Positions 11,933-25,520 of a DNA stretch of 56,037 nt are shown here, piece by piece. Location of the stretch: contig CAVVXT010000017.1 in the NCBI GenBank assembly GCA_963752255.1, positions 1 through 56,037 on the forward strand. Direction: 5' to 3'. Numbering within the stretch: the first letter of the stretch is position 1; the number at the start of each line of letters is the position of its first letter. The notes beneath the pieces were generated by a model, which was not told the origin of the DNA, searched no databases, and worked only from the letters and a program-made list of their open reading frames with translations. The position numbers were made by a program, and so were the translations under genes. This DNA comes from Nitrososphaeria archaeon. Its GTDB lineage: Archaea; Thermoproteota; Nitrososphaeria; JACIWG01.

Positions 11933-11951
11933 CTCTAAAATAACTAAAAAT

Positions 11952-13083: not shown

Positions 13084-13377
13084 TTAGGCATACCATCTTG
13101 AAAATTGCATTGCATCTACTTTAAGAAGTTCCTTTGCTATTTCCTTAATTATTTCAAAATCAAAAACTTCATAAACATCATATTCTGCAACATAGTGAAT
13201 AAAGTCAACATACAATTTGTCTTCTAAAATATGCTGTGTTTCATCATCACCCTCGAGTAACTCTATTTCCTTTATCCTCTTTTTCACTTCTTCTAAATTA
13301 AATTGCCCTGTGAAAGTAGCCCTTAGTTTCTTCACTTCTTCTAACATTTTTTCCGTTTCAGCATACATTTTAATCAC
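13084..13377 (-). CDS. Viral hypothetical protein
   Basis: 97 aa ending D.E..H..ED.L...F.RWYA, a pattern I recall from phage hypothetical proteins. Confidence 0.6.
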   Translation of the reverse strand: MIKMYAETEKMLEEVKKLRATFTGQFNLEEVKKRIKEIELLEGDDETQHILEDKLYVDFIHYVAEYDVYEVFDFEIIKEIAKELLKVDAMQFSRWYA

Positions 13378-13473
13378 TATAATATCTTTTGTGTGCTAGT
13401 TAAGTCTTCAGCGAGAACCTCATCACATTTGTCCAGTCTTCGATGTTTTCTTTCATCACAAGACTTAACCACA

Positions 13474-13713
13474 CTACTTTTCTCCTCGTTTACAGTTTTT
13501 AGCTTTAGGAAGTCTGTAATAGATGGCTTCAATTTCAGCGACAAGAAGGTTAATGACAAGAACACCTTTTTCCTTTGGAATTTCAAGTTTAATGTAGTCG
13601 GTTGTAAGCTCTTTTAAAGTACCTTCATAGAATTTGCTATCAAGCCTAATATGCACCCTCAAAAATGTACCTTTAGGCAATTCACAGAGCAAATCCCAAA
13701 AATAGTTAGTCAT
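13474..13713 (-). CDS. Viral small beta-barrel protein (possible Sm/LSm-like fold)
   Basis: V.IRL...YEGTLKELTTDYIKL...INL.VAEIEAI pattern; overlaps upstream stop. Confidence 0.5.
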   Translation of the reverse strand: MTNYFWDLLCELPKGTFLRVHIRLDSKFYEGTLKELTTDYIKLEIPKEKGVLVINLLVAEIEAIYYRLPKAKNCKRGEK

Positions 13714-14051
13714 GGTGTATCAATTCCTCGCGCTGTGAAATTAAGAAAGTCTTGAAGATGCGTTCCGTAAAATCTGCAATGCCTAACCTTTCCTTTCTCA
13801 CTATGTAAAACGTCTATCTCAACTATTTTGTCTTTCGTGTACCTGAAATAAGTTCGCCCATCCTTACTACATTTGAGACAAATATGAATTCCCTGATAAA
13901 CCGTTTTCCTATCATGCTTTCTACAATCAAAGCAAAGTTCCCTTTTTGTCGTTGTCACGAAAGCATTACCGCATCTAGCACAGTTCTTATAAATCGAAGC
14001 ACTGTTAACATTCTTCCATTTCTCATTTAAAACTTCAGCATTCCAAGTCAT
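13710..14051 (-). CDS. Viral Zn-finger protein
   Basis: CARC..CFDC and CLKC..H..C motifs. Confidence 0.65.
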   Translation of the reverse strand: MTWNAEVLNEKWKNVNSASIYKNCARCGNAFVTTTKRELCFDCRKHDRKTVYQGIHICLKCSKDGRTYFRYTKDKIVEIDVLHSEKGKVRHCRFYGTHLQDFLNFTARGIDTP

Positions 14052-14152
14052 TTCTTGTCACCGTCAAGATATTTAACAAAGAACCACACGATAGCAAAAG
14101 CCACGATAAAGGCAATGACGAGATTTTTAACATTCAAATCAGGAAATGTCAT
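14048..14152 (-). CDS. Viral 34-aa single-TM protein (not in ORF track)
   Basis: MTFPDLNVKNLVIAFIVAFAIVWFFVKYLDGDKK; ATGA overlaps on both sides. Confidence 0.6.
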   Translation of the reverse strand: MTFPDLNVKNLVIAFIVAFAIVWFFVKYLDGDKK

Positions 14153-14316
14153 CTTATCAGTTCACCGCCGATTTTAAAAGACTTCTTGCAGTGTTTGCAT
14201 CTCCAAATCCTATTCCTGTAAAATTTGACAAGCAGTAGACCAAGACCTTCCTTCTTCGTTTTCGACCACTTCGCAAACATTATTTGACCACACTTAGGAC
14301 ACTTTGGGTTAGTCAA
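14149..14316 (-). CDS. Viral 55-aa Zn-ribbon protein (not in ORF track)
   Basis: TTG start after an AGGTGA SD; CPKC...CKHC. Confidence 0.65.
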   Translation of the reverse strand: MTNPKCPKCGQIMFAKWSKTKKEGLGLLLVKFYRNRIWRCKHCKKSFKIGGELIR

Positions 14317-14341
14317 TTTTGCTTCACCTTTCTAGCCTTCC

Positions 14342-14608
14342 TCACTTTGTGACCATGCGCCCTCTTGCAAAAAGGTGATATTTCCGCATCTCATTCGTCT
14401 GCACCTCATAGTTTTTGCATCCATAACAAAACCTGCACTTTTCGGTATTCTGATTTTTACATGTATCACAAGGAATCTCATTGAAAAAAGGTTCTTGCTC
14501 TTTTTCTGTCAAATCTTTCTTCTTGTTAGGCGTGTTGACTTCAACGCAGAGTGGAATAATTGAACGATGATAGCACATTTCATAGTTCGGGCATGTCTCA
14601 CAGGGCAT
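14342..14608 (-). CDS. Viral Cys-rich protein
   Basis: Two PCxTCxN..C repeats; overlaps the integrase stop. Confidence 0.6.
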   Translation of the reverse strand: MPCETCPNYEMCYHRSIIPLCVEVNTPNKKKDLTEKEQEPFFNEIPCDTCKNQNTEKCRFCYGCKNYEVQTNEMRKYHLFARGRMVTK

Positions 14609-15894
14609 TAAGAAGCACCTCTCTGTTTGAAGAATGCTTTAACGTCACCCTTGATCTTGTTAACTTTCGCGATGCTGAAGGTCAAATAGTACCTTTTCAG
14701 CGTGTCAACGTCAATCCATCCGACACCCATTAAGCCGATTCCTGCGTCACCGTCACCTGCGATCAGTTCAAGTGACACTTCCGCGCTTTGCCATAGAAGA
14801 TTAACATGAAGATGTCTCATTGTATGCGGTGTGATTTCGTCAAATCTTTTAGTTGGGAATAATTCCTTGCAAATTCCTTCAAACTTGTTAACAAGCAAGC
14901 AATACGCGCCATAAGGAATATCAAAGACAAATTCCGCATTCGGCTTTATTTCAACAACACTTGTTATGTTGTATTTGTGACCTTCCGAATTTCTAACATA
15001 TTTGTATTCAAGTCTTTCATGGTATTCTTTCAGCTTCAATATATCGTCTATGAGACTATCCCAAAAGAGATCAATAGGGCAATACTTCCACCAAATACCT
15101 TTCTTAACCTTGCTTTCGTATATGTCAACATTTTTGTTTTCAATGCTCATTTTATCCCATCGAATACCTAAAATTCCCCCCCTTGCTTCACCTTCGGTGA
15201 TCCTTGATCCTTCTCTGCAACCAAAAGTTAGGTGCGCCTTCAGCATTGTTCTTTCATAGAATGTTAGCCTTTCATCGTTTAATGCTCTTAAAATTTCTTC
15301 CGTAAAAAGTTCATAGCGTTTAACTTCAGTAATTTTGTAAGGTGTTGTTTCAACTTCGTCAATGCCTGTTTGAAAGTGTGGCGCAATAGCTCTTATTGAA
15401 ACAGTTGATCTATACTTCATATTATGCGATTTAAGTGAAGAAAGGTAAGTGTTCACATCAACTTTTGTCCAATTAGAAGGATTCTTGAAGCGTAGAAACT
15501 GAAAAGCTTTCTGTGCATCCTCTAAAACACTTGGATATTTTTTAAGCCCTTTAGCTCTAGCGTTAACAATGTACGATCTAACAGTTGGGTAAATGCTTTC
15601 ATATTCAATCCTTCCGTCAGGTAGTTTCTTTTTGGTATAAAGTGATTTAACACCACCTTCAGCCATGCCTTTTTTAAATTCTTCGTATTGCTTCACAATT
15701 TCAGGATCGAATTTAGGGTTTAATTTGTCAAGCTGTTTGTTTAACCATTCAATATTCCTCAAAGCTGTACTTACATCAACTGCTACACCAACTTCTTTAA
15801 CAGCTTCATTAAGACTTCTTAACTTAGATGCTTCCCTTGTGAGAAAATGTAGATACATTATTTGACTAATATCTAAAACTCTCGTTTTTGGCAT
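14608..15894 (-). CDS. Tyrosine recombinase/integrase with N-terminal HTH
   Basis: Catalytic R (FGCREG), K (ESKVK), HxxR (PHTMRH), W/Y (GW..VDTLKRYY). Confidence 0.85.
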   Translation of the reverse strand: MPKTRVLDISQIMYLHFLTREASKLRSLNEAVKEVGVAVDVSTALRNIEWLNKQLDKLNPKFDPEIVKQYEEFKKGMAEGGVKSLYTKKKLPDGRIEYESIYPTVRSYIVNARAKGLKKYPSVLEDAQKAFQFLRFKNPSNWTKVDVNTYLSSLKSHNMKYRSTVSIRAIAPHFQTGIDEVETTPYKITEVKRYELFTEEILRALNDERLTFYERTMLKAHLTFGCREGSRITEGEARGGILGIRWDKMSIENKNVDIYESKVKKGIWWKYCPIDLFWDSLIDDILKLKEYHERLEYKYVRNSEGHKYNITSVVEIKPNAEFVFDIPYGAYCLLVNKFEGICKELFPTKRFDEITPHTMRHLHVNLLWQSAEVSLELIAGDGDAGIGLMGVGWIDVDTLKRYYLTFSIAKVNKIKGDVKAFFKQRGAS

Positions 15895-16064
15895 TTTAAA
15901 ACCATCTTGACATCAACTTTGATTGCATATTTATATTAATCTTTCTATCATAAATGCCATAAATTGATACTATAATGCAACGTTGATAGCAAAATAAATT
16001 TAATCTTTTTCACAAAGAAAAGACTATGAAACGATGACATGAAGCAATAAAGTTTATTTAACCA
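15895..16064. promoter_or_regulatory. Divergent promoter region between integrase and RHH gene with operator-like motifs
   Basis: TTGACATCAA (15907-15916) and ATAATGCAA (15972-15980) also occur in the 25.1-25.5 kb control region; AT-rich TATA-like tracts. Confidence 0.5.
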
Positions 16065-16301
16065 TTGTTTTATAGCAAATCCATGTCAAAGGATGACAAG
16101 AACAAAAGGGAGAAAATAGTGCAGGAAAGTGTAAGACTGCCAAAATGGGCAATTGAAGAACTCGACATAATAGCAAACTATCTTAATTTTCCACGATCAT
16201 ACCTAATAAGACAATATATCTACGAAGGAATAAAGCGCAACCAAGAAGGAATACCTGCAAGTTTGTTTGAAAAAATCAAAAACAAAGAAGAAAAACAATA
16301 G
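16065..16301 (+). CDS. Ribbon-helix-helix (CopG-like) regulator, probable provirus repressor
   Basis: ESVRLPKWAIEELDIIA...RSYLIRQYI RHH pattern. It is the only convincing plus-strand gene in the element and is followed by a T-rich terminator-like tract. Confidence 0.75.
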   Translation: MFYSKSMSKDDKNKREKIVQESVRLPKWAIEELDIIANYLNFPRSYLIRQYIYEGIKRNQEGIPASLFEKIKNKEEKQ

Positions 16302-16335
16302 TTGGCAACCAATCTTTTTTTTATTTATTTTTTTA

Positions 16336-16551
16336 TTATATGAATAATCCGACTACGTAGCCGACGCCTAATCCTGCAAAAAACGTTGTCAGATCATACT
16401 CTAAAGTGTCGCCGTTATAGTACCACTCTGTGAACTGGTAGGTCACGTAGATCAGCGCGATTGACAGGGCTAAAACTTCCTCAGACTTCACAAAAAACCC
16501 TGAAGTTAAACCGAGAAGGAAATGCCAGTAGGGGAAAGGCATCAGATTCAC
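16336..16551 (-). CDS. Viral small membrane protein
   Basis: 71 aa, hydrophobic segments; last gene of the structural operon. Confidence 0.6.
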   Translation of the reverse strand: MNLMPFPYWHFLLGLTSGFFVKSEEVLALSIALIYVTYQFTEWYYNGDTLEYDLTTFFAGLGVGYVVGLFI

Positions 16552-16727
16552 TTATACCACTCCTTAAACTTCTTCGGATGATATTTCTTATAGTGCTTTC
16601 GAGTGGCTTCCAGGATCACATCTTTAGGAACATGCCAACTGTATTTTTTCCTGTCAAATCTTTTAATGACCTTACCGCAAGTAGTACAATGAATAACCTT
16701 CCAACGTGGCACTTCTCCCTTCGGCAT
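16548..16727 (-). CDS. Viral C2H2 Zn-finger protein, 59 aa (not in ORF track)
   Basis: MPKGEVPRWKVIHCTTCGK...RKHYKKYHPKK; GGTGA SD; overlaps next start. Confidence 0.7.
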   Translation of the reverse strand: MPKGEVPRWKVIHCTTCGKVIKRFDRKKYSWHVPKDVILEATRKHYKKYHPKKFKEWYK

Positions 16728-16731
16728 CTAA

Positions 16732-16869: not shown

Positions 16870-16896
16870 GTTTTTCACCTCGTTAAGACTTTTCAC

Positions 16897-17394
16897 CTAA
16901 AAAGAAGGCAAAGCCTTGTGACCGTAAGCACTTTCAATGAGATAAGCAACCGCAATGATCACCGCGATAACAATGACCGCGATAACAATGTATTCCGCGT
17001 ATGATCCCAATGTTTGAAAGTTCATCATCAGCTTCGACCAAAGGTCTTCAAGCCACCCTGTCGAAATGCCACCACCCAAGCCTGAAAAGTTAACGGTCAA
17101 AACCGCGTTCACGTTCTTTGTGTCTGAAACAAGCTGATCTAAAATGCCATAATCAATTTTCACCGATAAAAAATTGTCACCCTGCAAAACGTGACTTGTC
17201 ACATCACCCTGCCATGTCTTCGTATTTGTCGGTGAAACGATTAGATCGTTGAATTGAATTATGACTAGGTTGCTGTCTGCGGAAATGTTAAGGCTAGCAC
17301 TTGTTAAAGTGCCAATCCATGTGACAGGTGCTGATCCACTGAAGTCGGGTCCTTTCTCACTTTCCTTGATGATTTGAATGTTTTGATTTGTCAA
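16897..17394 (-). CDS. Viral beta-rich protein with C-terminal TM anchor
   Basis: 165 aa; C-terminal YIVIAVIVIAVIIAVAYLI. Confidence 0.65.
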   Translation of the reverse strand: MTNQNIQIIKESEKGPDFSGSAPVTWIGTLTSASLNISADSNLVIIQFNDLIVSPTNTKTWQGDVTSHVLQGDNFLSVKIDYGILDQLVSDTKNVNAVLTVNFSGLGGGISTGWLEDLWSKLMMNFQTLGSYAEYIVIAVIVIAVIIAVAYLIESAYGHKALPSF

Positions 17395-17610
17395 CTATCT
17401 CACTTTCACCCTTGTCTTCAAAATAGCTAGGTCTTCGCGGTTTGCTTGAACACAGTCTAGAACCTTGTTTGTTTGATTGAGCATTTGCGCCATTAACCAT
17501 ATTTGAACGTCATCTTTGTCAAATTTCCCTTCTTTCGAGTATTGATATAATTTTTCAGCAAGATCAGGCGCAAAACCTGCAATCAATGGAATAATCGTTT
17601 CAATGTTCAT
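17395..17610 (-). CDS. Viral hypothetical protein
   Basis: 71 aa, abuts neighbours in the operon. Confidence 0.6.
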   Translation of the reverse strand: MNIETIIPLIAGFAPDLAEKLYQYSKEGKFDKDDVQIWLMAQMLNQTNKVLDCVQANREDLAILKTRVKVR

Positions 17611-17615
17611 TTAGA

Positions 17616-18044
17616 TCACGCTATTATGAAGTAAGCCAATGCACCGAATATGATCAAAGCGATGACGATTGTTTGAATATTTAGACCGCTAGATGCTGAA
17701 GTGGTTGAAGTTGTTGGCGTTGTTGTTGCTGAAGTGGATGTTGTTGACGTTGCTGAAACTGTGCTTATCGGATATTGTGAAGCCTGACTTGTGCCTGAAG
17801 TCAATTGCGAAGTTGGCGTTGTTGAAGTGCTTGTTGATGTGACAGGTATAGGTATGCCACTAGGGTAAATTACGTTTGTTGAAGTTTTTACCGCATTAAG
17901 GGCAGGTGCATTGAATTGCCAATCGAAGTATTCTTGAAGTGAAGCCTTGCCACCTTCCGCTACATAGTCATTGTAAGAAGGCGCTTGCTGATTTTCCTGC
18001 ACATATTCGCTATACCATGACGAAACCCAACTTTCAATCGCCAT
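17616..18044 (-). CDS. Viral Ser/Thr-rich protein with C-terminal membrane anchor
   Basis: S/T linker then SGLNIQTIVIALIIFGALAYFIIA. Confidence 0.7.
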   Translation of the reverse strand: MAIESWVSSWYSEYVQENQQAPSYNDYVAEGGKASLQEYFDWQFNAPALNAVKTSTNVIYPSGIPIPVTSTSTSTTPTSQLTSGTSQASQYPISTVSATSTTSTSATTTPTTSTTSASSGLNIQTIVIALIIFGALAYFIIA

Positions 18045-18045
18045 A

Positions 18046-18690
18046 TCACTTCACTATGAAATATAGCAATGCACCGAATATAATCAAGGCAATGACGATC
18101 GTTTGAATAGGCAAGCCACTAGCTGAAGTCGTTGTTGCTGAAGGCGCGGTTGCTGAAGGCGTATAGCCACCACCACCTGCACCTGCGGAAGTTGCTGTTA
18201 ACCCTTGATTTGTTGACGTTGCTGAAGTTGAAACACTTGTTGTTGACAGATTAGTGTTCACGCTAGGTGCAACCGATTGCACAGTTTGACCTGAAACTGT
18301 CGTTGTAGCTGAAGGATTACCTAGTGCTATAAGAGATTGAAACAACGCCTGTGTCTGCGCGGTTGTCGGCGTTCCTGCAGGAACATTTATTGACATTGGC
18401 GTTGAAGCAACTACTGTGCCACTAACTACATTTGGCTCACCACTAGGCCAATATTGCACACCTGACAACAAAGCAAAACTGTCTGCTTCAACCCATGTTG
18501 CAATAACAGCTGTGCCAGATTGCGTTGGAGATTGCGCAACAAACTTATTCCAATGACCATAAGGCGCGTATGGCGTTCCTCTTGCCGTTATACAGGCCAA
18601 ATATGGAGTGCCTTTCGTTAACCCTGAAGCTATCCACTGTATTACTTGACCAACATCGTAATGACTACTATCTGTAATTATTGAAGGCAT
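18046..18690 (-). CDS. Viral Ser/Thr-rich protein with C-terminal membrane anchor (paralogous tail)
   Basis: Beta-rich N-domain, S/T linker, SGLPIQTIVIALIIFGALLYFIVK. Confidence 0.7.
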   Translation of the reverse strand: MPSIITDSSHYDVGQVIQWIASGLTKGTPYLACITARGTPYAPYGHWNKFVAQSPTQSGTAVIATWVEADSFALLSGVQYWPSGEPNVVSGTVVASTPMSINVPAGTPTTAQTQALFQSLIALGNPSATTTVSGQTVQSVAPSVNTNLSTTSVSTSATSTNQGLTATSAGAGGGGYTPSATAPSATTTSASGLPIQTIVIALIIFGALLYFIVK

Positions 18691-18700
18691 TTATTTCACC

Positions 18701-18955
18701 TCACACATTGTTGACGAAGCCAATTGTTTCACTTCTTGCACTCGTTTCTTTTAAGGCAAGCTGTCCAAAACTTATGCTTTCAGTTCTTCCCCTTGTTTCT
18801 TGAAGGTTAGCACCCCAAGCCTGCGTGCCACCACCGTTAATGAACAAGACTAATTCATTTCTCTGCACTATTTCAACAAGCGCGTAATTCCAAAAAGCGT
18901 TGCCTGATATGATGATCTTTTGGACCGTGTTATAAACTGAAGCAGCAAACGCCAT
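18701..18955 (-). CDS. Viral small beta-rich structural protein candidate
   Basis: 84 aa in the structural operon, abutting the upstream gene. Confidence 0.55.
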   Translation of the reverse strand: MAFAASVYNTVQKIIISGNAFWNYALVEIVQRNELVLFINGGGTQAWGANLQETRGRTESISFGQLALKETSARSETIGFVNNV

Positions 18956-19429
18956 CTAGAGCACCACCGCGAAGTAAACCTTGTCACCTGCGGAAGAATC
19001 AACAACGTAAGGTTGAGCTTCCGAAGAAACAGGTATTGAAAGCGCGTCATTAGCATTCAAAGGGTAGCCGTTGTCAATCGCGACCGTGCTGTCACCGATC
19101 CACATAGTGCTACTATTACTTTGACCTGCTCTCACTTGCACCTGCTTGCAATCTAGTGAAGGTGGCAAAAGTGCTTGAAGCTGACTTGCCGATTGTATAA
19201 CAACCTTCTTTGCTGAAAAGGTTGACCACCCTGCCAACTTTGTTATGATCGGTGAAGGGAAATTCACTTGTATTGCTGAAGGTTGCGAAAGTTGCTGATA
19301 AGTTGTGCTTGAAGGCACATAGACAGGTACTTTACCTTGCTTCGTGAATAAATAACCGATCAGCACCCCACCGACAAGTGCTGCTAATTCTGACATTTTA
19401 GCAAGCACCTTTCTAGGCGAATGCTGCAT
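18956..19429 (-). CDS. Viral protein with N-terminal TM and small jelly-roll-like domain (penton/vertex candidate)
   Basis: Likely start MSELAALVGG; V.VRA...N...MWIG...V....GYPL...D.LSIPV pattern typical of small viral beta-sandwiches. Confidence 0.55.
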   Translation of the reverse strand: MQHSPRKVLAKMSELAALVGGVLIGYLFTKQGKVPVYVPSSTTYQQLSQPSAIQVNFPSPIITKLAGWSTFSAKKVVIQSASQLQALLPPSLDCKQVQVRAGQSNSSTMWIGDSTVAIDNGYPLNANDALSIPVSSEAQPYVVDSSAGDKVYFAVVL

Positions 19430-20075
19430 TTAACTGCCAATTCACAGTGAAAGCATAGCTTGTGTTAATAACCTGCGCAACGAAGTCGCTGTCTGCAACG
19501 GAAAGCCTTGAAACAAGCGTTCTTGCAACCGCATTTATACCACCTTCAAAAGCTATTAGAGAAGCCTGTACAAACATGAAAAGACCTACTTCGCCAACTG
19601 TGCCTGCATAACCTGCGTTAAATGATACTGACCAAAGAACATAACCTGACGTTGCAGTTGAGCCTGTCGTACCTGATTGTGCATTTGGTATTGTGCCAAT
19701 TCCTCCACCTATTGGTGCTGTCAAAGCGGTCATTGAAGCGGTTGTTGGGTGTGTTAGGTCTGTGCCACAGGTTATAGTGCCATCTGTGAAGCCTGCTGTC
19801 GCCCAATGGTATGAAGGATAATTATTCGAGCCCACCGTATCGCAACTAAATAGATTAATGAAAGCAAATAATCCATTAAGCACAAAGTGGTTTCTGAAAT
19901 GTCGTGTGTCCTTGCCACCGTTGTTAAACCATACTTCACCTTTCATAATGATTTTGTCTTTCGCCAATGTTAAGGTGTTCTTTCTTCTTATGACGATCTT
20001 GTCGTAAAGCGCTTTCAGCACTATTGGTGGTGCTTTGAATTGATATTTTCCTATTTTGAATGTCACTTCATTCAC
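19413..20075 (-). CDS. Viral beta-rich spike/turret candidate
   Basis: GTD...PTTAS.TAL...F.AG..GTVGEVGLF...LVSR motif reminiscent of phage tail-collar/baseplate-type domains. Confidence 0.55.
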   Translation of the reverse strand: MNEVTFKIGKYQFKAPPIVLKALYDKIVIRRKNTLTLAKDKIIMKGEVWFNNGGKDTRHFRNHFVLNGLFAFINLFSCDTVGSNNYPSYHWATAGFTDGTITCGTDLTHPTTASMTALTAPIGGGIGTIPNAQSGTTGSTATSGYVLWSVSFNAGYAGTVGEVGLFMFVQASLIAFEGGINAVARTLVSRLSVADSDFVAQVINTSYAFTVNWQLNAAFA

Positions 20076-20611
20076 CTGCTTCTACTTGGATATACTTGCA
20101 CGAAGTAAGAAGGATATTCCGTGTATAGCTCTGTGTGAGAAGCTAGCCATGCGCTAGGGTTGCCTTCTGCGGTCTTCATTTCTGAAGGATCAGCTTCACC
20201 ACTGTTTATTTGGTTTGCAAGATACGAGATATATCCACTGTCAATGAAGGCTTGCTCGATTGCGTCATTTGAAGAATAGATGCCGACAGGGAATTTCACG
20301 CCTAAAATTGAAGTATTACCTGCGGTTGTTTGCTGTGTGTTAGCGTATGAATAAAGTGTCTGTCCTTCATTTGTTGAAACTGAAGGATTACTTGTTCCCT
20401 GAAGGTATTGCTGACCTTCCGCGCTTGTTGTTATTACATTCGGATTATTTGATGATGCAGGCGTTGTGCTAGTTGCAGGCGTAAAAGTTGAAGCGCCTAA
20501 AGTGCTTAAAGCACTGCTTACTTGATCTTTAAAGAAGTAATATATCACGACTACACCACCTACTAAGGCAATTCCGATAATTGCGTATTTCTCATTCTTC
20601 TTTAAAGGCAA
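20072..20611 (-). CDS. Viral membrane protein with N-terminal TM
   Basis: MPLKKNEKYAIIGIALVGGVVVIYYFF then S/T-rich region; directly downstream of MCP. Confidence 0.7.
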   Translation of the reverse strand: MPLKKNEKYAIIGIALVGGVVVIYYFFKDQVSSALSTLGASTFTPATSTTPASSNNPNVITTSAEGQQYLQGTSNPSVSTNEGQTLYSYANTQQTTAGNTSILGVKFPVGIYSSNDAIEQAFIDSGYISYLANQINSGEADPSEMKTAEGNPSAWLASHTELYTEYPSYFVQVYPSRSR

Positions 20612-20614
20612 TGT

Positions 20615-21505
20615 CTAAACACTATCTCGCATCAAGTAGAGACGCAGAACTTTGCTGATAAGACCTGTCACAATGAATTTCGTCAAGGTTGTGACAACGT
20701 ATGGTTGATGTCCTAGAGAATAGAAGCCTGTCTGATGACCTGAATATGTGTCAAGGTTTTCTTCGTCAATCACGTTCTGGCTATCGATCGCATCCAATCC
20801 TGCGCCACCGTTAGGTGCTAGCGTGAAAGCTGTAAAATCCGCGTCAGCGCCCACCGCGTAAGTGCCAACTGACAGAACACCTGTGTCAATTATTTCCCTT
20901 GAAAGCTGTGACATCATATCGACGGTGTTATCTCCTGCACCTGTGACCATAATTTTTGGTATTGCTTCAATTCTCATAGTTGGTAGAGCAGCTTGGCCTT
21001 GCGTTGTTAAAGCCGCGTCCTCCCAAATACCATAAACGGCGACAGTGATCGTTGAAGAAGCTGATCCAACTGTGCTTAAAACGTCACCTGTATTCCCAAT
21101 GGTCAGATCTAGAACCGCAGGCTGATCCGCGCTTGCAACCCTGCAAGGCACATAAACCATTGCTGTCCCACCTGTGTCACCTGCGTTTGCAATAGTTGGA
21201 TAACGACCTTTCGCTGAAGCACGCCCCAGCTTTTTAGAAAGCATGAAGGTTTCAAAAGGTATATCGTAGCCTTCACCCGCGTTTATAATCGGTTGCTGAT
21301 TCTTGTCTCTTAAAGCAATGCCGTGTAAGAAGTACATTGAAGATATTTTCCTTGAAGTGCCTGATCCGATTGTTGTCGCAACCGTCACCTGAAAGTCTAA
21401 CCCTTTCAAGTCACCGTAGTTAGGCAAAGGCACTTGTTGCTGTGGTTGATTATTTGCCGTGAAAGTGATTGTTCCGTAATTTTTTATTAGCTTACGATAT
21501 TGCAT
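20615..21505 (-). CDS. Putative double-jelly-roll major capsid protein
   Basis: 296 aa, beta-strand-rich, no TM. Motif order resembles my recollection of STIV B345 (TITFTA..VPLP..DLKGLDFQV / FLHGIALR / G.YP / ITVAVY / LP..IEAIP / D.TAFTL / EEN..Y). Lies just downstream of the packaging ATPase. Confidence 0.7.
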   Translation of the reverse strand: MQYRKLIKNYGTITFTANNQPQQQVPLPNYGDLKGLDFQVTVATTIGSGTSRKISSMYFLHGIALRDKNQQPIINAGEGYDIPFETFMLSKKLGRASAKGRYPTIANAGDTGGTAMVYVPCRVASADQPAVLDLTIGNTGDVLSTVGSASSTITVAVYGIWEDAALTTQGQAALPTMRIEAIPKIMVTGAGDNTVDMMSQLSREIIDTGVLSVGTYAVGADADFTAFTLAPNGGAGLDAIDSQNVIDEENLDTYSGHQTGFYSLGHQPYVVTTLTKFIVTGLISKVLRLYLMRDSV

Positions 21506-21849: not shown

Positions 21850-21916
21850 AGAGTATTTGGAAGAGTTTATTTGTTAACCTATTCGATTTACTTCATTATT
21901 TGGGAGTGTTTATAAG

Positions 21917-22156
21917 TCAGATGAGAAAAAGAAGCCTTGCACATTCTAGGCAATAGTATTTTGAGCATCCACCGTGACCGCGCTTGATAACAATTGTTTC
22001 ACCTTCAAGGAAAATATGTGGGTGAATTCCGTGTTTCATAGAATTATAGCATGTTAAACCGAAGCGCAGACCATATCTTGACTTCATCATCATTTGCAGA
22101 TTTGTCGCGTTAAGAGTGATCTTGTTTATTCGATTGAAGTTTTGAAAGTCGGACAT
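21917..22156 (-). CDS. Viral Zn-binding protein
   Basis: C...H...YYCLECA pattern. Confidence 0.6.
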   Translation of the reverse strand: MSDFQNFNRINKITLNATNLQMMMKSRYGLRFGLTCYNSMKHGIHPHIFLEGETIVIKRGHGGCSKYYCLECARLLFLI

Positions 22157-22165
22157 TTAGATCAT

Positions 22166-22768
22166 TTAAATTGGTTTCATAAGCGCAGGCTTGTCACTAT
22201 ACTTATATTTCATGTAGTAGTGGTATCTTGGAAGATTTTTCAGTTCCAAAACGTCGCAGCCGATCCATGAGGCGACAAGTTTAACGTCGTGGATCCAACC
22301 AAGACGGAAAACATAGATAAATTCAGCGTTTGAAACAATCGCCTTATGAATTTCCTGTGGGCGCTGAGTTATGCTAATCGTTGTTTTTCCTTCATTTCTG
22401 CCTGTCCTGATCCTGTCTTCAAAAACTTCAGGCATGAAGTTTGTGCCACCGTATTCCTGCACTTCTTCAACTATCATAACAAGGTTAAGCTGATTGTTGT
22501 AGTGCTTGCAAAACTCTATGAAGGCAGATATTTTTTTGTTGATCGGTTGATAAACATATTGCGCGTTTGCTTCGTACTTGTGTGATTTAGGGATTGGGAG
22601 ATCACTATATCCGCGCCAATTATAATCATAGATCACGAAGCTAACATTTGAAGCAATAAGGCTTCTTTTGACTATGAAGTTGTTTACGAAAAATGTTTTA
22701 CCTGATCCTGCGCTTCCAACAATCAGCACATTATTGTCGTAAGGATCATAGGTGATCCTGTCAGACAT
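22166..22768 (-). CDS. A32/FtsK-HerA-type genome packaging ATPase (STIV B204-like)
   Basis: Walker A GSAGSGKT, Walker B VMIVEE, GR (Arg finger), ITQRP, C-terminal K.L..YHY....KPI; 200 aa, no TM. Confidence 0.88.
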   Translation of the reverse strand: MSDRITYDPYDNNVLIVGSAGSGKTFFVNNFIVKRSLIASNVSFVIYDYNWRGYSDLPIPKSHKYEANAQYVYQPINKKISAFIEFCKHYNNQLNLVMIVEEVQEYGGTNFMPEVFEDRIRTGRNEGKTTISITQRPQEIHKAIVSNAEFIYVFRLGWIHDVKLVASWIGCDVLELKNLPRYHYYMKYKYSDKPALMKPI

Positions 22769-22971
22769 TAAGTGTTCACTTCAGTTTTAGGTGCTTCAAT
22801 CTCCTTTTTTTCTACTAGCTCTATTTCAAAAGATAGAAGAAACTTGTTGTCACCGATCTTGTCAAAAGAAGCTGTCACCTTCATGTTTGTGTCGATTTTT
22901 ATGTCTGCTTTATCCATCATTTTTATGAGCGGCTTTAAGGCAAATTCAAGAAGCGATAAAGTACCTGACAT
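22768..22971 (-). CDS. Viral hypothetical protein
   Basis: 67 aa, stop overlaps the ATPase start. Confidence 0.6.
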   Translation of the reverse strand: MSGTLSLLEFALKPLIKMMDKADIKIDTNMKVTASFDKIGDNKFLLSFEIELVEKKEIEAPKTEVNT

Positions 22972-22976
22972 TTAGA

Positions 22977-23645
22977 TCACTTTGTTTCCTTCTTTTCTTC
23001 AGCTTTCGGTGGCGTTGCAGGTGGTGTTGTTGGTTTCTTTTTACGCGTCATGAACTGCGCAAGAATAGGCGCGATAAATGCACTTGCAGTTGCACCTGCG
23101 GCAATATATAGAATTGTGTCACCTTCAACAATCCTTTCATGAACCCTTATCTGCATACCTGAAAGGGCAGGCTTCCAAAGCTCACCTAAATTCGCAAAGT
23201 CGTCATCGTCAGGTACTTCAAGACCGAAGCCTTCAAGTATGCCTGCAATGTTTTTGAATATCTTTTCAAGGTTAAGCTTTTCAGATAGAGGTACAAGTTT
23301 AACTGAAGATGTTGTCGTGCCTTGTACTGTTTGCCCGATTGGGATCGGTGGCTTCGGTTGCGGATTCACATTAACTTTAACGTCACTTGCAGACGTTACC
23401 TGCTTTGCTCTTTCTTCTAGCAGTTTGTTTCTTGCAAGATAGATTGTTGCTGATGAACATTTAATCGCTTTAGCGATCTCGTCGACGATTTTCTGATCTA
23501 TTTTTTGTTCTAAAACGATTTTACCTGAAGAAACATATTCATTTATTTTTTGTTTAGCTAGCTCTGTTAGATCAATTTTCGTTGAAGTTTGAGGTGCAAA
23601 TGTTTCAGGTGCTTTCTTTTCTTCAGCTTTTGGTTGTTCACTCAA
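22977..23645 (-). CDS. Viral protein with HTH-like segment and C-terminal hydrophobic helix
   Basis: VDEIAKAIKCSSATIYLAR (HTH-like); C-terminal ILYIAAGATASAFIAPILAQF plus basic/Pro tail. Confidence 0.6.
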   Translation of the reverse strand: MSEQPKAEEKKAPETFAPQTSTKIDLTELAKQKINEYVSSGKIVLEQKIDQKIVDEIAKAIKCSSATIYLARNKLLEERAKQVTSASDVKVNVNPQPKPPIPIGQTVQGTTTSSVKLVPLSEKLNLEKIFKNIAGILEGFGLEVPDDDDFANLGELWKPALSGMQIRVHERIVEGDTILYIAAGATASAFIAPILAQFMTRKKKPTTPPATPPKAEEKKETK

Positions 23646-23680
23646 TTTATTTCAACCTCAGTCGTGAGTTTTAAATTTCA

Positions 23681-24019
23681 TCAGTTATCGCTTCTCTCAA
23701 ATCTGCTTTTGAGAAAAGAAACAACTTTGTCGCGAAGGTCTTTATCATAGATCAGGATCGCGCCAGCGCTAAAAACGAGAACAACGATTACAACAACAGC
23801 GAATTGCCATCCTTTAATGCCTTCATCTTTTGGTATATTCTTAGGTATTTCATTAGGTATAGACTTAGGTATAGACTTAGGTAATTCTTTTACTTCATCA
23901 CTTATTTTGGCTATTTCTTCACCTTTTGGATTAAGCACTTTGTCACCTTTGATTTCTTCAGGCTTTGCTTCATCTGGTTTTTCTTCAGTCTTCTTCGTGT
24001 CTTTGTTTTCTTCAGTCAC
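23681..24019 (-). CDS. Viral membrane protein with IPK(S/N) repeats
   Basis: Charged N-terminus, 12-bp tandem repeats, C-terminal TM. Confidence 0.65.
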   Translation of the reverse strand: MTEENKDTKKTEEKPDEAKPEEIKGDKVLNPKGEEIAKISDEVKELPKSIPKSIPNEIPKNIPKDEGIKGWQFAVVVIVVLVFSAGAILIYDKDLRDKVVSFLKSRFERSDN

Positions 24020-24215
24020 TTAAATCGCCCCAATCTTTTACTTCAAGATTTACCCAATCTATTTTCATTTTATATTTTTTTTCAAATTTGAGAAGCGCGT
24101 CCTTATGTTCCAACGCGTCCTTATGTTCCAACTGAAGCCTTGTAAAATAGTGAATAAAAGAGATACAACGTCGAACTTCCTCGCGCGCCTCAAACCTCTT
24201 TGTTTCTTCGGACAT
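24012..24215 (-). CDS. Viral hypothetical protein
   Basis: 67 aa; perfect in-frame 18-bp tandem duplication (24096-24131, EHKDAL x2). Confidence 0.6.
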   Translation of the reverse strand: MSEETKRFEAREEVRRCISFIHYFTRLQLEHKDALEHKDALLKFEKKYKMKIDWVNLEVKDWGDLSD

Positions 24216-24443
24216 TTAGGGTGTCACCTTATCGTTTTGAAAAGAAACGGCTTCGCTTGTTTTGACTTGATCTCCTAACGTAAGATTGAGAAGTTTTGAG
24301 AGATCTAGTAGCTGTGCAAGGTCTCCAAATTGACTTAATGCATTTAGATCAATTGATGCTACGATTTTGTCGTTTATCTTGAAGTAAATAATTTCGCTGT
24401 ATGCGCTATATTCTATTTTGACTGTTTGTATTTTTTCACTCAA
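24216..24443 (-). CDS. Viral hypothetical protein
   Basis: 75 aa, GGTGA SD, abuts neighbours. Confidence 0.55.
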   Translation of the reverse strand: MSEKIQTVKIEYSAYSEIIYFKINDKIVASIDLNALSQFGDLAQLLDLSKLLNLTLGDQVKTSEAVSFQNDKVTP

Positions 24444-24591
24444 CTTCTATTTCACCGTTAACCCATTTCCTAAGCAGTTTCTCGACAACCTGCCAAATCG
24501 TAGTCTTATGGCTTCGCGCCTTCACAACACCGACAACTAGCAGATTGTAGTCAACCTTGATCCATGTCCTAATCCTTTCCTTTGTTGTCAT
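24436..24591 (-). CDS. Viral 51-aa RHH-like protein (not in ORF track)
   Basis: MTTKERIRTWIKVDYNLL...KARSHKTTIWQVVEKLLRKWV. Confidence 0.6.
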   Translation of the reverse strand: MTTKERIRTWIKVDYNLLVVGVVKARSHKTTIWQVVEKLLRKWVNGEIEVE

Positions 24592-24596
24592 TTAGA

Positions 24597-25100
24597 TCAT
24601 CCTTTCTTCAAGCTCTCCCTTGCTATGCGATGCACGATGTCGTCTTTGTCGTCTAGGTCAAATTCTCGTCCTGAAGTTGGATTGTTCTGCCATGAAGATT
24701 CCTGTCGGTAAGGTTCAAAGTCATCTCTTTCCCTCTGAGATTTCCAGCTTTCAGTCTTCGGAGGATTCATCTTAGCCTTCTTGTAGTTAATGGTTAACAC
24801 CTTACGTGGACAGTTTTTGCAGTAAATCTTCGCCATATCCTCTTTCTCAATCTTAGGATATTTCTGAAGAATAGGGCACTCAAAAGTTTGCTTACCTCTA
24901 ATCCAATCATAGAGATCATAAAGACAGATTGTTAGATTGCTGTCGTCAACGTTGACTCCCTGACTTTCTGTTTTCGTTTCATTGGTGTCATTAAGTTTAT
25001 CATGGATGATCTGATTGATTGTTTTGCCAGATGCCTTTTGTAATTCAATGATAGCTTTATAGTCTTCATCTAAAATTTTGACGCTTTTAAAATTAGACAT
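24597..25100 (-). CDS. Viral protein with N-terminal RHH-like domain and Cys cluster; first gene of the long operon
   Basis: KSVKILDEDYKAIIELQKASGKTINQII; C..ECP...YCKNC. Confidence 0.65.
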   Translation of the reverse strand: MSNFKSVKILDEDYKAIIELQKASGKTINQIIHDKLNDTNETKTESQGVNVDDSNLTICLYDLYDWIRGKQTFECPILQKYPKIEKEDMAKIYCKNCPRKVLTINYKKAKMNPPKTESWKSQRERDDFEPYRQESSWQNNPTSGREFDLDDKDDIVHRIARESLKKG

Positions 25101-25135
25101 TTGTGTTGGTATTATAATGATTGCTATTTAAGGTT

Positions 25136-25520
25136 ATTATGCAATCATATTAGTGCTCTCGAACACTCCTTTATTGCATAATCCCGTTCATTTTTATGTC
25201 ATCATTGTATAATGCAATTGCGTTATCGTTGCTTTCGTGGTATATTATAGAGCGTTAAAACATGGCGATTTTAAAAAGAAAAATGACTTTTTGACATGCA
25301 GACTAAAGAGTGTTGCCAACTATATAGGTTCTACCTGTTCTACCTGTCCATTATGCAAAGGCTTTTTGTTTCATTTTTGTTTATTCTACCTGTTCTACCT
25401 TTATTCTACCTTGATTATGCAATGACTTATGAAGTGTCAATAATGCAATGATTGACATCAAAAAAGGCATTATGCAATGGTTAGTGCAACGCTCAACCAT
25501 TGCGTTATTATTTGCTTTCG
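25136..25520. repeat. Repeat-rich provirus control/origin region
   Basis: Seven ATWATGCAAW copies, five TTCTACCT copies, and inverted repeats at 25136/25173, 25435-25457 and 25474-25503. Confidence 0.75.

What the first reader, a model, noticed from the sequence alone, without database searches (positions are those of the whole stretch)
13084..25520. Integrated double-jelly-roll (STIV-like) provirus in a non-Sulfolobales-looking archaeon: candidate new virus family
Seen: a compact ~12.5 kb block with a 200-aa A32-type ATPase, a 296-aa beta-rich MCP candidate a few genes downstream, about 11 small TM proteins, vertex/spike candidates, RHH regulators and a tyrosine integrase. No terminase, portal or tail genes are present. 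Established: an A32 ATPase with a DJR MCP and small membrane proteins defines tailless icosahedral viruses with an internal membrane (PRD1, PM2, STIV). Inference: a temperate Varidnaviria virus infecting a Nitrososphaeria/Bathyarchaeia-like host, with mostly orphan genes, plausibly an undescribed lineage.
Basis: partly seen in the sequence, partly recalled or inferred. Interest (0 to 1): 0.92.

Follow-up and report, generated by a model that had tools for sequence, protein, structure and literature searches.

The report
Integrated double-jelly-roll provirus in a thaumarchaeon
A 12.6-kb virus genome sits inside a sugar-kinase gene of a non-ammonia-oxidising thaumarchaeon; it has a PRD1/STIV-type capsid protein and packaging motor, so it is a new lineage of a rare but already known kind of archaeal virus.

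Summary
A same-genus genome (G009) has the empty site, which delimits a ~12.56-kb insertion (window ~12,975-25,545) in the 3' end of an FGGY kinase gene, flanked by an imperfect 16-17-nt repeat.

- **Capsid protein:** the AlphaFold model of the 296-aa protein matches PRD1 P3 (Z 18.1) and the STIV coat protein (Z 17.9) over its whole length.
- **Packaging ATPase:** the profile of the 200-aa ATPase matches STIV B204 end to end (E 9.8e-13).
- **Integrase:** the 428-aa protein is a divergent tyrosine recombinase with conserved R..HxxR..W..Y.
- **Relatives:** ~12-kb metagenomic contigs share the same gene order, and one has a 123-bp terminal repeat.
- **Host link:** one of 14 spacers in the host's own CRISPR arrays matches the ATPase gene at 35 of 39 positions.
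- **Host identity:** the host class holds amoA-positive genomes, but the host and two relatives searched lack amoA.

The kind is known. Three DJR proviruses with an A32-like ATPase and a tyrosine integrase were described in Nitrososphaera (PMC6563490). This MCP falls in the same broad profile family, but in a separate clade. I rate it a new member of a known kind, plausibly a new family.

The parts
12960..12976 (.). attL: imperfect direct repeat (17 nt) that holds the displaced original 3' end of the FGGY kinase gene
   Evidence: The empty-site alignment with G009 ends here. TCCAGA (12971-12976) is identical in both copies.
25530..25545 (.). attR: second copy of the repeat (16 nt, 13 positions identical to attL with one indel), inside the last codons of the kinase gene
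   Evidence: The element supplies six new codons and a stop, so the kinase stays 508 aa.
25521..27047 (-). Host FGGY carbohydrate kinase gene, the integration target (3' end)
   Evidence: Pfam FGGY_N 2.6e-66 and FGGY_C 3.5e-37. The orthologue in G009 is 97% identical.
25101..25529 (.). Non-coding control region next to attR with two sets of short repeats; candidate operator, origin or integrase arm sites (inference)
   Evidence: TTATGCAAT: 4 of the window's 7 copies lie here, and 0 of 100 shuffles reach 7. TTCTACCT: all 5 of the window's copies lie at 25329-25411. 64 nt here are 75% identical to L020 10769-10831.
24597..25100 (-). First gene of the leftward gene train, 167 aa, Cys-rich; function unknown (regulator or replication, inferred from position only)
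   Evidence: 37% identical homologue in L020. No Pfam or PHROG hit.
22977..23645 (-). Conserved 222-aa protein upstream of the ATPase, with a C-terminal TM helix; possibly a membrane-anchored DNA-binding protein (weak lead)
   Evidence: Homologues in L020 (55%) and in L024/L025/L026 (29%). TM at 178-196. The nearest Atlas cluster is viral, with HTH_23 in 14% of its members and a score of 0.88, so this is a lead only.
22166..22768 (-). Genome-packaging ATPase, A32/STIV B204 type (FtsK-HerA superfamily)
   Evidence: Pfam FtsK_SpoIIIE 1.3e-5, 25.2 bits against a cut-off of 24. phrog_2666 2.2e-25. PDB: B204 E 3.1e-5 with the single sequence and 9.8e-13 with the profile, positions 9-197 against 4-204. 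GSAGSGK (residues 18-24) and E101-E102 are invariant in 5 sequences; reading them as Walker A and B is recalled. The gene contains the protospacer 22293-22331.
20615..21505 (-). [quoted passage not shown]
   Evidence: AF2 pLDDT 71.4, pTM 0.73. Foldseek: PRD1 P3 E 7.2e-13, STIV 7.8e-11. VIA-align: 1w8x_A Z 18.1 (271 aligned, rmsd 3.7) and 2bbd_A Z 17.9 (265 aligned, rmsd 3.4). The family profile hits the STIV coat protein at E 0.0052. Trimer prediction: median score 0.80 against a best control of 0.00.
20072..20611 (-). 179-aa protein with an N-terminal TM helix and a Ser/Thr-rich linker; candidate virion membrane protein
   Evidence: TM at 9-27. Partial homologues in L019 and L020.
19413..20075 (-). 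220-aa beta-rich protein; candidate host-recognition (spike or fibre) protein
   Evidence: 41 proteins with E <= 0.001, its own included. AF2 pLDDT 84.4. Best fold match is the Haloferax tailed virus 1 tail protein 9h4p_BD: Z 9.7, 136 aligned, 20% identity and Foldseek E 4.4e-4. Next come phage baseplate and fibre proteins at Z 5-6.5.
18701..19429 (-). 157-aa and 84-aa conserved proteins downstream of the spike candidate; penton or minor capsid candidates, untested
   Evidence: 68% identical homologues in the same order in L020. The Atlas gives only viral hypothetical clusters, best score 0.91.
16897..18690 (-). Three C-terminally anchored proteins (214, 142 and 165 aa), two with Thr/Ser-rich linkers, and a 71-aa ORF; candidate virion surface or membrane proteins
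   Evidence: C-terminal TM helices. The 214-aa and 142-aa genes share a 93-nt repeat at 74% identity (family D2). The 165-aa protein has a 27% identical homologue in L022.
16065..16301 (+). The only plus-strand ORF (78 aa); possible RHH regulator facing the integrase gene
   Evidence: Pfam RHH_1 E 0.021, below the cut-off.
14608..15894 (-). Divergent tyrosine recombinase (integrase), intact in the integrated state
   Evidence: phrog_32871 integrase 2.7e-9. R227, R231, H357, R360, W393 and Y403 are invariant in an alignment with the L020, L024 and G183 homologues. The top PDB profile hit is 3nkh_A 'Integrase', E 0.014. No Pfam hit.
13084..14608 (-). Distal small genes (88, 55, 113, 79 and 97 aa), several Cys-rich or zinc-ribbon; function unknown
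   Evidence: Zn-ribbon hits are below the cut-offs. The 113-aa protein has a weak HNH PHROG hit, 8.7e-4, and the 97-aa protein hits phrog_10733 at 6.5e-12. All lie inside the insertion.

Best explanation
This is the integrated genome (~12.56 kb) of a temperate, tailless icosahedral virus of the double-jelly-roll lineage (realm Varidnaviria). Its host is a non-ammonia-oxidising member of the class that holds the ammonia-oxidising archaea.

**Shown:**
- It is an insertion that is absent from a sister genome.
- It sits in the 3' end of an FGGY kinase gene, between imperfect 16-17-nt repeats, and it replaces the last six codons, so the kinase keeps its length.
- It encodes a DJR capsid protein, a STIV-B204-type packaging ATPase and a tyrosine recombinase with its catalytic residues.
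- The capsid, ATPase and spike gene order recurs on ~12-kb metagenomic contigs, one of which has a terminal direct repeat.

**Inferred:**
- The integrase recombines a site on the circular virus genome with the kinase 3' end, and can reverse the reaction.
- The repeat-rich 430-bp non-coding region next to attR controls the single leftward gene train, replication, or both.
- MCP trimers build an icosahedral shell over an internal membrane that holds the small TM proteins.
- The ATPase, perhaps with the conserved membrane-anchored 222-aa protein, pumps DNA in through one vertex.
- The 220-aa fibre-like protein and the Thr/Ser-rich anchored proteins mediate host recognition.
- No replication protein is recognisable, so replication is presumed to depend on the host.
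For: **Integration**
- The two flanks are contiguous in G009 at 95% nucleotide identity.
- Junction sequences show the repeat.
- The kinase is 508 aa in both genomes, with EIAEQK replaced by DITNTL.
- The target is an FGGY kinase by Pfam.

**MCP**
- AF2 model: pLDDT 71.4.
- PRD1 P3: Z 18.1, 271 aligned, rmsd 3.7. STIV MCP: Z 17.9, 265 aligned, rmsd 3.4. PBCV-1, PM2 and FLiP follow at Z 14-16, all over residues 1-296 or nearly so (9-296 for FLiP).
- Foldseek E 7e-13 to 8e-11.
- The BFVD list is led by capsid proteins of DJR viruses.
- The profile of 81 relatives hits only the STIV coat protein in the PDB at E below 1 (0.0052).
- Homotrimer prediction: runs 0.84, 0.08 and 0.80, median 0.80, best of 3 controls 0.00, runs agreeing in at least 79% of contacts, partner pLDDT at least 81. 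The tool's mark was reached by 20 of 30 solved pairs and 1 of 23 single chains. DJR trimers are solved, so the pass may reflect likeness.

**ATPase:**

**Integrase:**

**Relatives**
- L020 (contig of 12,689 bp, GC 38%) shares 12 of the 30 ORFs at E <= 1e-4. Ten run in the same order from the 222-aa gene to the 84-aa gene at 32-78% identity (222-aa 55%, 67-aa 75%, ATPase 78%, 79-aa 32%, 40-aa 70%, MCP 69%, 179-aa 49% over a partial match, 220-aa 61%, 157-aa 68%, 84-aa 68%). The other two are the 167-aa gene (37%) and the integrase (26%).
- L024 (12,045 bp) has a 123-bp terminal direct repeat and carries homologues of the 222-aa protein, the ATPase, the MCP and the integrase.

**Host link:** 1 of 14 spacers in the genome's own CRISPR arrays matches the ATPase gene at 35 of 39 positions (E 4.7e-8), and matches relative L019 at 33 of 39. 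The mismatches fall at spacer positions 6, 18, 21 and 33.

**Composition:** element GC is 39.4%, within the range of the flanks.
Against: - No virion, induction or excision data exist, and no sequencing run could be listed.
- No penton (single jelly-roll vertex) protein was identified.
- No replication protein was identified.
- The MCP model rests on 5 sequences, and 52 residues have pLDDT below 50.
- Cellular DJR-like proteins also match the model, at lower scores: DUF2961 4kq7 at Z 11.1 and glycosidases at Z 10.7-11.3.
- The single-sequence PDB search for the ATPase was topped by a multicystatin chain (E 3.6e-7, residues 52-97 only). I take that for a local compositional match.
- The MCP has no Pfam or PHROG hit and no tblastn match at E <= 1 in 50,697 phage and archaeal-virus records.
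- One of the three trimer runs scored 0.08.
- A resident self-matching spacer, together with an apparently split cas7 and no cas1 found, is equally compatible with a long-resident, possibly inactive prophage.
Confidence: 0.85

Rival explanations
1. It is a defective or cryptic prophage: a once-active DJR virus that can no longer excise, replicate or build particles and is carried passively or partly domesticated.
For: - No replication gene is recognisable: only 1 of 27 ORFs scanned reaches a Pfam cut-off.
- The att repeats are imperfect, with 13 of 16 positions identical and one indel.
- A near-matching spacer sits in the host's own array, next to a cas7 split over two frames, and no cas1 was found in a genome that is 94.7% complete. 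That fits long co-residence.
Against: - All core genes are full-length compared with the L020 homologues: ATPase 200 against 200 aa, MCP 296 against 296 aa, spike candidate 220 against 219 aa.
- The gene train is tightly packed without visible frameshifts.
- The integrase keeps its catalytic residues.
- The element is absent from a genome whose flanks are 95% identical, so the insertion is recent on that scale.
Confidence: 0.12
2. It is an integrative plasmid-like element that merely carries capsid-module genes, like the integrative elements with an MCP and ATPase whose viral nature is unconfirmed, and it spreads without building virions.
For: PMC6563490 (passages read) notes that the viral nature of several archaeal elements encoding both signature proteins has not been confirmed. 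No lysis or egress gene was identified here.
Against: - No conjugation or plasmid replication or partition family was hit.
- The conserved core shared with relatives is the morphogenesis block itself, not an accessory.
- Relatives cluster at one size, which suits a capsid-limited genome. Contigs run 11.8-12.7 kb, but only L024 shows a terminal repeat, so the others may be incomplete.
Confidence: 0.03

Closest known systems
Thaumarchaeal DJR proviruses NitGar-E1/E2 and NitEve-E7 (Krupovic et al. 2019, PMC6563490; passages read)
   Same: - An integrated element under 20 kb in a genome of the same class.
- It carries a DJR MCP, an A32-like ATPase nearby and a divergent tyrosine integrase.
- CRISPR spacers match it.
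- The MCP profile built here hits the MCP of such a provirus in amoA-positive genome G183 at E 1.8e-54.
- The integrases are alignable: 22.6% identity over 363 aa, E 6e-8.
   Different: - The host is a different order, lacks amoA, and has only 10 genomes held.
- Pairwise MCP similarity to G183 is about 21% over 133 aa.
- The two MCPs sit in separate clades of the quick tree: ours in a clade of 8 with SH-aLRT 100, and G183 on a branch of length 1.95.
- Only 1 of the 30 ORFs, the integrase, finds a BLASTP match in the 40 kb around the G183 MCP.
- Gene order differs: the G183 ATPase is on the opposite strand.
- The integration target is a kinase 3' end, whereas the paper reports an intergenic site or another element.
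Sulfolobus turreted icosahedral virus (Turriviridae)
   Same: - MCP fold: Z 17.9 to 2bbd_A.
- ATPase alignable end to end with B204.
- A tyrosine integrase is present; A510 of STIV according to PMC5894146.
- A small dsDNA genome with many small membrane proteins.
   Different: - MCP identity is 9-14% in the structural alignments.
- No homologue of other STIV proteins surfaced in Pfam or PHROGs.
- The best match of the spike candidate is a haloarchaeal tailed-virus tail protein, not the STIV turret.
- The host is mesophile-like at 39% GC and is not in Sulfolobales.
- The genome is about 12.6 kb.
Bacterial tailless DJR phages (PRD1 and other tectiviruses; Thermus phage phiKo; Lysinibacillus phage phiG2)
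   Same: - Best MCP fold match is PRD1 P3, Z 18.1.
- The nearest ATPases among isolated viruses are phiG2 (28%, 1e-12), phiKo (27%, 3e-10) and a Vibrio phage (24%, 3e-4). All have genomes of 11-14 kb.
   Different: - This element has no protein-primed polymerase, although relative L022 has one (DNA_pol_B_2 1.2e-38).
- The host is archaeal.
- The life style is integrative.

Membership tests
DJR-MCP viruses (Varidnaviria, Bamfordvirae) | Major capsid protein with two vertical jelly rolls in one chain | tested here: met
   The model matches PRD1 P3, STIV, PBCV-1, PM2 and FLiP MCPs at Z 14.2-18.1 over the full length. Foldseek E is down to 7e-13. This is a predicted structure, not a solved one.
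DJR-MCP viruses (Varidnaviria, Bamfordvirae) | [quoted passage not shown] | tested here: met
   B204 at E 9.8e-13 over positions 9-197. FtsK_SpoIIIE is above the Pfam cut-off. The gene lies 661 nt upstream of the MCP gene.
DJR-MCP viruses (Varidnaviria, Bamfordvirae) | MCP assembles into trimers (pseudo-hexameric capsomers) | tested here: met
   Prediction only. Median score 0.80 against a best control of 0.00; runs 0.84, 0.08 and 0.80; at least 79% contact agreement; pLDDT at least 81. The mark was reached by 20 of 30 solved pairs and 1 of 23 single chains. The pass may stem from likeness to solved DJR trimers.
DJR-MCP viruses (Varidnaviria, Bamfordvirae) | Single jelly-roll penton protein at the vertices | tested here: inconclusive
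   The one candidate I folded (220 aa) resembles a tail or fibre protein instead.
DJR-MCP viruses (Varidnaviria, Bamfordvirae) | Icosahedral virion with an internal membrane | not testable with these tools
   There is only the indirect sign that 9 of 30 ORFs have a predicted TM helix.
Turriviridae (STIV-like) | Close MCP and ATPase sequence kinship and shared turret and minor capsid genes | tested here: not met
   - The MCP profile reaches the STIV coat protein only at E 0.0052, over one jelly roll.
- The single MCP sequence found no viral protein in the PDB.
- There was no tblastn match at E <= 1 in the phage and archaeal-virus records.
- No other STIV-like protein was recognised.

It works like STIV but is not a member of that family.
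Thaumarchaeal DJR proviruses (PMC6563490) | A thaumarchaeal iMGE under 20 kb with a DJR MCP, an A32-like ATPase and a tyrosine integrase | tested here: met
   The class assignment rests on amoA being present in G183 and G212, which are labelled 'same class'.
Thaumarchaeal DJR proviruses (PMC6563490) | MCP in the same clade as the Nitrososphaera provirus MCPs | tested here: not met
   It is the same profile family, but the clades are separate in the quick tree and pairwise similarity is weak. The tree is a quick search with SH-aLRT support only.
Tyrosine recombinases | Catalytic R...H-x-x-R...H/W...Y | tested here: met
   R227 (and R231), H357, R360, W393 and Y403 are invariant in 4 sequences at 23-25% identity. 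phrog_32871 integrase at 2.7e-9. Assigning these residues to catalytic roles rests on recalled knowledge of the family. Pfam Phage_integrase was not hit.
   HerA chains match only profile positions of about 87-176, at E 2.2e-9 or weaker, whereas B204 matches the full length at 9.8e-13. No formal ATPase tree was built.

The most novel reading that the evidence does not exclude
The element is the first host-anchored, precisely delimited representative of an unclassified, family-level or higher clade of ~12-kb DJR viruses of Nitrososphaeria.

- The MCP family has at least 97 clusters at 50% identity in public metagenomes.
- It is invisible to Pfam and PHROGs.
- The two recent virome papers checked, one on Nitrososphaeria and one on soil nitrifiers, do not mention it.
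- Within one conserved morphogenesis block, its members swap an integrase (this element, L020, L024) for a protein-primed polymerase (L022).

If so, Varidnaviria would be a regular, overlooked part of the thaumarchaeal virome, including its heterotrophic, non-ammonia-oxidising branches.
Probability: 0.5. Interest if true: 0.6.

Novelty: new member of a known kind. Interest (0 to 1): 0.5.

Why it matters
Only three DJR proviruses, all in ammonia-oxidising Nitrososphaera, underpin the claim that this virus lineage co-evolved with the Thaumarchaeota (PMC6563490). That paper itself asks for more representatives.

This element adds one from a different, non-ammonia-oxidising order. It comes with exact ends, a defined attB in a kinase gene, a matching CRISPR spacer in the same genome, and a set of syntenic ~12-kb relatives. 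Together these give a usable MCP, ATPase and spike profile set for finding such viruses, which current family libraries miss.

It does not change the picture of what DJR viruses are.

Tried and rejected
**Repeats and RNA genes**
- An exact-repeat search for att sites found nothing longer than 12 nt, and none at the true ends. The ends came only from the empty-site comparison.
- Rfam at gathering thresholds found nothing in the window.

**Searches for relatives that found nothing**
- MCP relatives by degenerate patterns: none in genome contigs or viral contigs.
- ATPase in viral contigs: none.
- MCP profile in the 10 genomes of the order: only G000.
- MCP profile in 401 genomes of the class: G000, G183, and a weak G212 hit at 4.7e-4.
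- MCP profile in 401 genomes of the phylum: G000, and a weak G558 hit at 2.3e-4.
- These are samples, so the family was 'not found in those searched'.
- Pfam on 81 MCP relatives: no family in more than 1 member.
- The att cores, allowing up to 3 mismatches, were not found in L020, L022, L024 or L025, so the relatives may use other targets.
- The CRISPR repeat occurs in the order only in G000, plus one degenerate copy in G009.

**Rejected readings**
- Cellular DJR-like glycosidase or DUF2961: rejected because those matches score lower (Z 10.7-11.3 against 18) and because the gene travels with the ATPase on virus-sized contigs.
- Two-SJR-MCP (sphaerolipovirus-like) reading: rejected because one chain holds both jelly rolls.
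- The 220-aa protein as penton: rejected.

**Unproductive or unavailable**
- Atlas look-ups of the 157-aa and 222-aa proteins gave only weak leads.
- The look-up of sequencing runs: none was listed. Read laying was therefore not used, and excision could not be tested.

**Literature**
- 'Nitrososphaeria' + 'provirus' + 'double jelly-roll': 0 papers.
- 'Nitrosopumilus spindle-shaped virus' + 'jelly-roll': 0 papers.
- The words Varidnaviria, jelly, DJR and icosahedral do not occur in the main text of 10.1101/2025.08.23.671958 (outline and abstract also seen). Varidnaviria, jelly, DJR and tailless do not occur in PMC11849493.
- PMC13573593 reports 3 Varidnaviria vOTUs among 655 archaeal provirus vOTUs (passages read). 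Its supplementary tables, which I could not see, might list this or a related provirus.
- The supplements of PMC6563490 and PMC5894146 were also not seen.

Full report
**1. What is in the sequence**

Window 12,800-25,600 holds a tight train of small genes. I kept 30 ORFs as a non-overlapping chain from the mechanical lists, and 29 of them lie on the minus strand. I dropped 13377-13586, which overlaps 13474-13713.

- The window has no tRNA gene and no Rfam family at gathering score.
- GC of the block is 39.4%, no different from the flanks.
- The window is a whole contig (C17) of a 2.1-Mb, 19-contig genome estimated 94.7% complete.

**2. It is an insertion with exact ends**

The flanking genes are an FGGY kinase (25521-27047; Pfam FGGY_N 2.6e-66, FGGY_C 3.5e-37) and a DUF4432 protein (10157-11287). 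Both have 97%-identical orthologues in the same-genus genome G009, where they lie 1.67 kb apart on one contig. Here they are 14.2 kb apart.

- BLASTN of the G009 stretch (L013) gives two blocks at 95% identity: L013 2269-4239 = window 27501-25529, and L013 4224-10001 = window 12974-7186.
- Sixteen bases of the empty site therefore align to both junctions.
- The junctions show an imperfect direct repeat at 12960-12976 (17 nt) and 25530-25545 (16 nt). Thirteen positions are identical, there is one indel, and TCCAGA is shared exactly.
- Read in the sense of the kinase, the element supplies six new codons and a stop. DITNTL replaces EIAEQK, and the protein is 508 aa in both genomes. The displaced original end lies at attL.
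- Integration into the 3'-distal part of a protein-coding gene was reported for 14 of 68 thaumarchaeal integrated elements (PMC6563490, passages read).
- The integrase gene is intact and lies away from the att sites.

**3. The capsid protein**

The 296-aa protein has no Pfam or PHROG hit and no meaningful PDB sequence hit.

- With four relatives, AlphaFold2 gave pLDDT 71.4 and pTM 0.73.
- Foldseek against the PDB lists PRD1 P3 first (E 7.2e-13, TM 0.64), then the STIV MCP (7.8e-11, TM 0.63), then PBCV-1 Vp54.
- An aligner that does not depend on Foldseek, run over 48,161 chains, gives the following, all over residues 1-296 or nearly so (9-296 for FLiP):

| Match | Z | Detail |
|---|---|---|
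| PRD1 P3 | 18.1 | 271 aligned, rmsd 3.7 |
| STIV MCP | 17.9 | 265 aligned, rmsd 3.4 |
| PBCV-1 | 15.6 | |
| PM2 P2 | 14.7 | |
| FLiP | 14.2 | |
| Cellular DJR-like proteins | 10.7-11.3 | lower-scoring, non-viral |

- BFVD is led by the MCP of Gluconobacter phage GC1. It also lists an uncharacterised protein of a Nitrosopumilus spindle-shaped virus (E 1.4e-13, but TM only 0.46) and AMDV5_4.
- A homotrimer prediction passed the tool's mark. Runs scored 0.84, 0.08 and 0.80, median 0.80, against a best control of 0.00. Contact agreement was at least 79% and pLDDT at least 81. The mark was reached by 20 of 30 solved pairs and 1 of 23 single chains.
- DJR trimers are in the structure record, so the trimer result shows likeness rather than proof.

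**4. The MCP family**

A profile search over 1.84 billion representatives found 97 proteins at E <= 1e-3, 80 at <= 1e-10 and 13 at <= 1e-30. Nearly all are 270-310 aa.

- A profile of 81 of them hits only the STIV coat protein in the PDB at E below 1 (E 0.0052, positions 19-123).
- Over whole genomes the profile finds the family in 3 of 401 sampled genomes of the class: G000, G183 at 1.8e-54, and a weak G212 hit.
- It finds the family in 2 of 401 sampled genomes of the phylum: G000 and a weak G558 hit.
- It finds the family in only G000 among the 10 genomes of the order.

**5. ATPase and integrase**

*ATPase.*
- The 200-aa protein reaches the Pfam cut-off for FtsK_SpoIIIE and matches phrog_2666 at 2.2e-25.
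- As a 5-sequence profile it aligns with STIV B204 from end to end (E 9.8e-13). HerA chains match only a central segment, at 2.2e-9 or weaker.
- GSAGSGK and a pair of glutamates are invariant. Reading them as Walker A and B is recalled knowledge.

*Integrase.*
- The 428-aa protein matches an integrase PHROG (2.7e-9) but not Pfam.
- Aligned with its homologues from L020, L024 and G183, it keeps R227, R231, H357, R360, W393 and Y403.
- The best PDB profile hit is an integrase at E 0.014.

**6. Other genes**

- **TM proteins:** 9 of 30 ORFs have a predicted TM helix. Three are C-terminally anchored proteins. Two of those are paralogues that share a 93-nt repeat.
- **220-aa protein:** it has 41 proteins at E <= 0.001, its own included, and a confident model (pLDDT 84.4). 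The best match is a domain of a tail protein of Haloferax tailed virus 1 (Z 9.7, 136 aligned, 20% identity; Foldseek 4.4e-4). Phage baseplate and fibre proteins follow. I read it as a host-recognition protein, not a penton.
- **RHH claim:** support is weak, with one hit below the cut-off.
- **Non-coding region:** the 430-bp stretch next to attR concentrates two short repeats. One variant copy lies 84 nt inside attL and one lies just upstream of the integrase gene. This suggests binding sites for a regulator or for the integrase, by inference.

**7. Relatives**

ATPase homologues led to ten metagenomic loci.

- **L020** (contig of 12,689 bp, GC 38%) has the same gene order from the 222-aa gene to the 84-aa gene, at 32-78% identity. 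It also carries homologues of the 167-aa gene and the integrase, arranged as a circular permutation of the provirus.
- **L024** (12,045 bp, GC 55%) has a 123-bp terminal direct repeat, as expected of a circular or terminally redundant complete genome. It carries the 222-aa homologue, the ATPase, the MCP (profile E 3.3e-72) and the integrase.
- **L022** (contig of 12,353 bp, GC 28%) has the ATPase, a 303-aa gene in the MCP position that the profile does not recognise, and a protein-primed-type PolB instead of an integrase.
- The longest contigs of the spike-candidate homologues are 11.8-12.7 kb, with one exception: one homologue lies on a 26-kb contig.

**8. Host**

G183 and G212 are labelled 'same class' and carry amoA (2e-120 and 5e-115). 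G000, G009 and G008 do not. The class is therefore the one that holds the ammonia oxidisers, and the host belongs to a small order (10 genomes held, one family) in which the three genomes searched lack amoA.

The genome has two CRISPR arrays with 16 repeats and 14 spacers. They flank cas6, cas8b, cas7, cas5 and cas3. One spacer matches the provirus ATPase gene at 35 of 39 positions, and L019 at 33 of 39. The four mismatches lie at positions 6, 18, 21 and 33. This spacing fits silent codon differences from a related virus, by inference.

**9. Comparison with what is known**

- Yutin et al. 2018 (PMC5894146, passages read) define a STIV group in which all genomes encode a B204-like ATPase and many a tyrosine integrase. 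Its TKV4-MVV subgroup reaches Thaumarchaeota.
- Krupovic et al. 2019 (PMC6563490, passages read) describe NitGar-E1, NitGar-E2 and NitEve-E7, with spacer matches to the MCP gene.
- The present element has every feature of that kind. It differs in host order, in MCP clade (quick tree), in having no other detectable shared gene except the integrase, and in its target site.
- Among isolated viruses, the MCP finds nothing at E <= 1. The ATPase finds only small tailless phages at 24-28% identity.
- The two recent virome papers checked, one on Nitrososphaeria and one on soil nitrifiers, do not use the words Varidnaviria, jelly or DJR in their main text.

**10. Verdict**

The novelty is that of a new lineage, plausibly family-level, of a known kind. 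It is not a new kind.

Open points:
- whether the element is inducible;
- which protein is the penton;
- how the genome replicates.

Noticed in passing
G000 contig C19, 42032-42593 and 49622-50053 (locus L029): Two CRISPR arrays in opposite orientation flank cas6, cas8b (TM1802), cas7, cas5 and cas3. The cas7 gene is split over two overlapping ORFs in different frames (L029 7305-7670 and 7612-8280, covering Pfam Cas7 positions 2-102 and 106-248). No Cas1 was found in the genome, although the control rang in 7 of 14 genomes. A degraded interference or adaptation system might explain why the near-matching spacer against the resident provirus is tolerated. The split could also be an assembly error.
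   Followed up: partly
L022 8778-10814: A 28%-GC relative with the same ATPase (51% identity) encodes a protein-primed-type DNA polymerase B (DNA_pol_B_2 1.2e-38) where this element has an integrase. It also has a 303-aa gene in the MCP position that the MCP profile does not recognise. This looks like module exchange within one virus group.
   Followed up: partly
BFVD entry A0A514K343: The MCP model matches an uncharacterised 303-aa protein of a Nitrosopumilus spindle-shaped virus (Foldseek E 1.4e-13, 19% identity, but TM only 0.46 and rmsd 14). A DJR-like protein in a spindle-shaped virus would be odd. No paper in the library links the two terms, and tblastn of the MCP against phage records found nothing.
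   Followed up: partly
G009, G008 and other genomes of the family: There are many FGGY kinase paralogues per genome: 10 matches in G009, 14 in G008 and 5-7 in three others. This points to a sugar-using heterotroph. The provirus targets only one of them.
   Followed up: no
window about 11640-11950: On reading the sequence, a stretch between host genes looked richer in G+C than its AT-rich surroundings and looked like a structured RNA. It overlaps a 67-aa ORF at 11693-11896. Rfam at gathering thresholds found nothing there, and I did not fold it.
   Followed up: no
G558 contig C2, 7165-7812 (locus L040): The MCP profile gives a weak match (E 2.3e-4, open frame of 312 aa) on the second, small contig of a two-contig genome of another class in the phylum. 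It may be an extrachromosomal DJR element.
   Followed up: no
window 17616-18690: Two adjacent genes (214 and 142 aa) are paralogues. They have near-identical C-terminal membrane anchors and Thr/Ser-rich linkers, and share a 93-nt repeat at 74% identity. L020 has two unrelated genes of 171 and 174 aa in the same place, so this looks like a variable region.
   Followed up: partly
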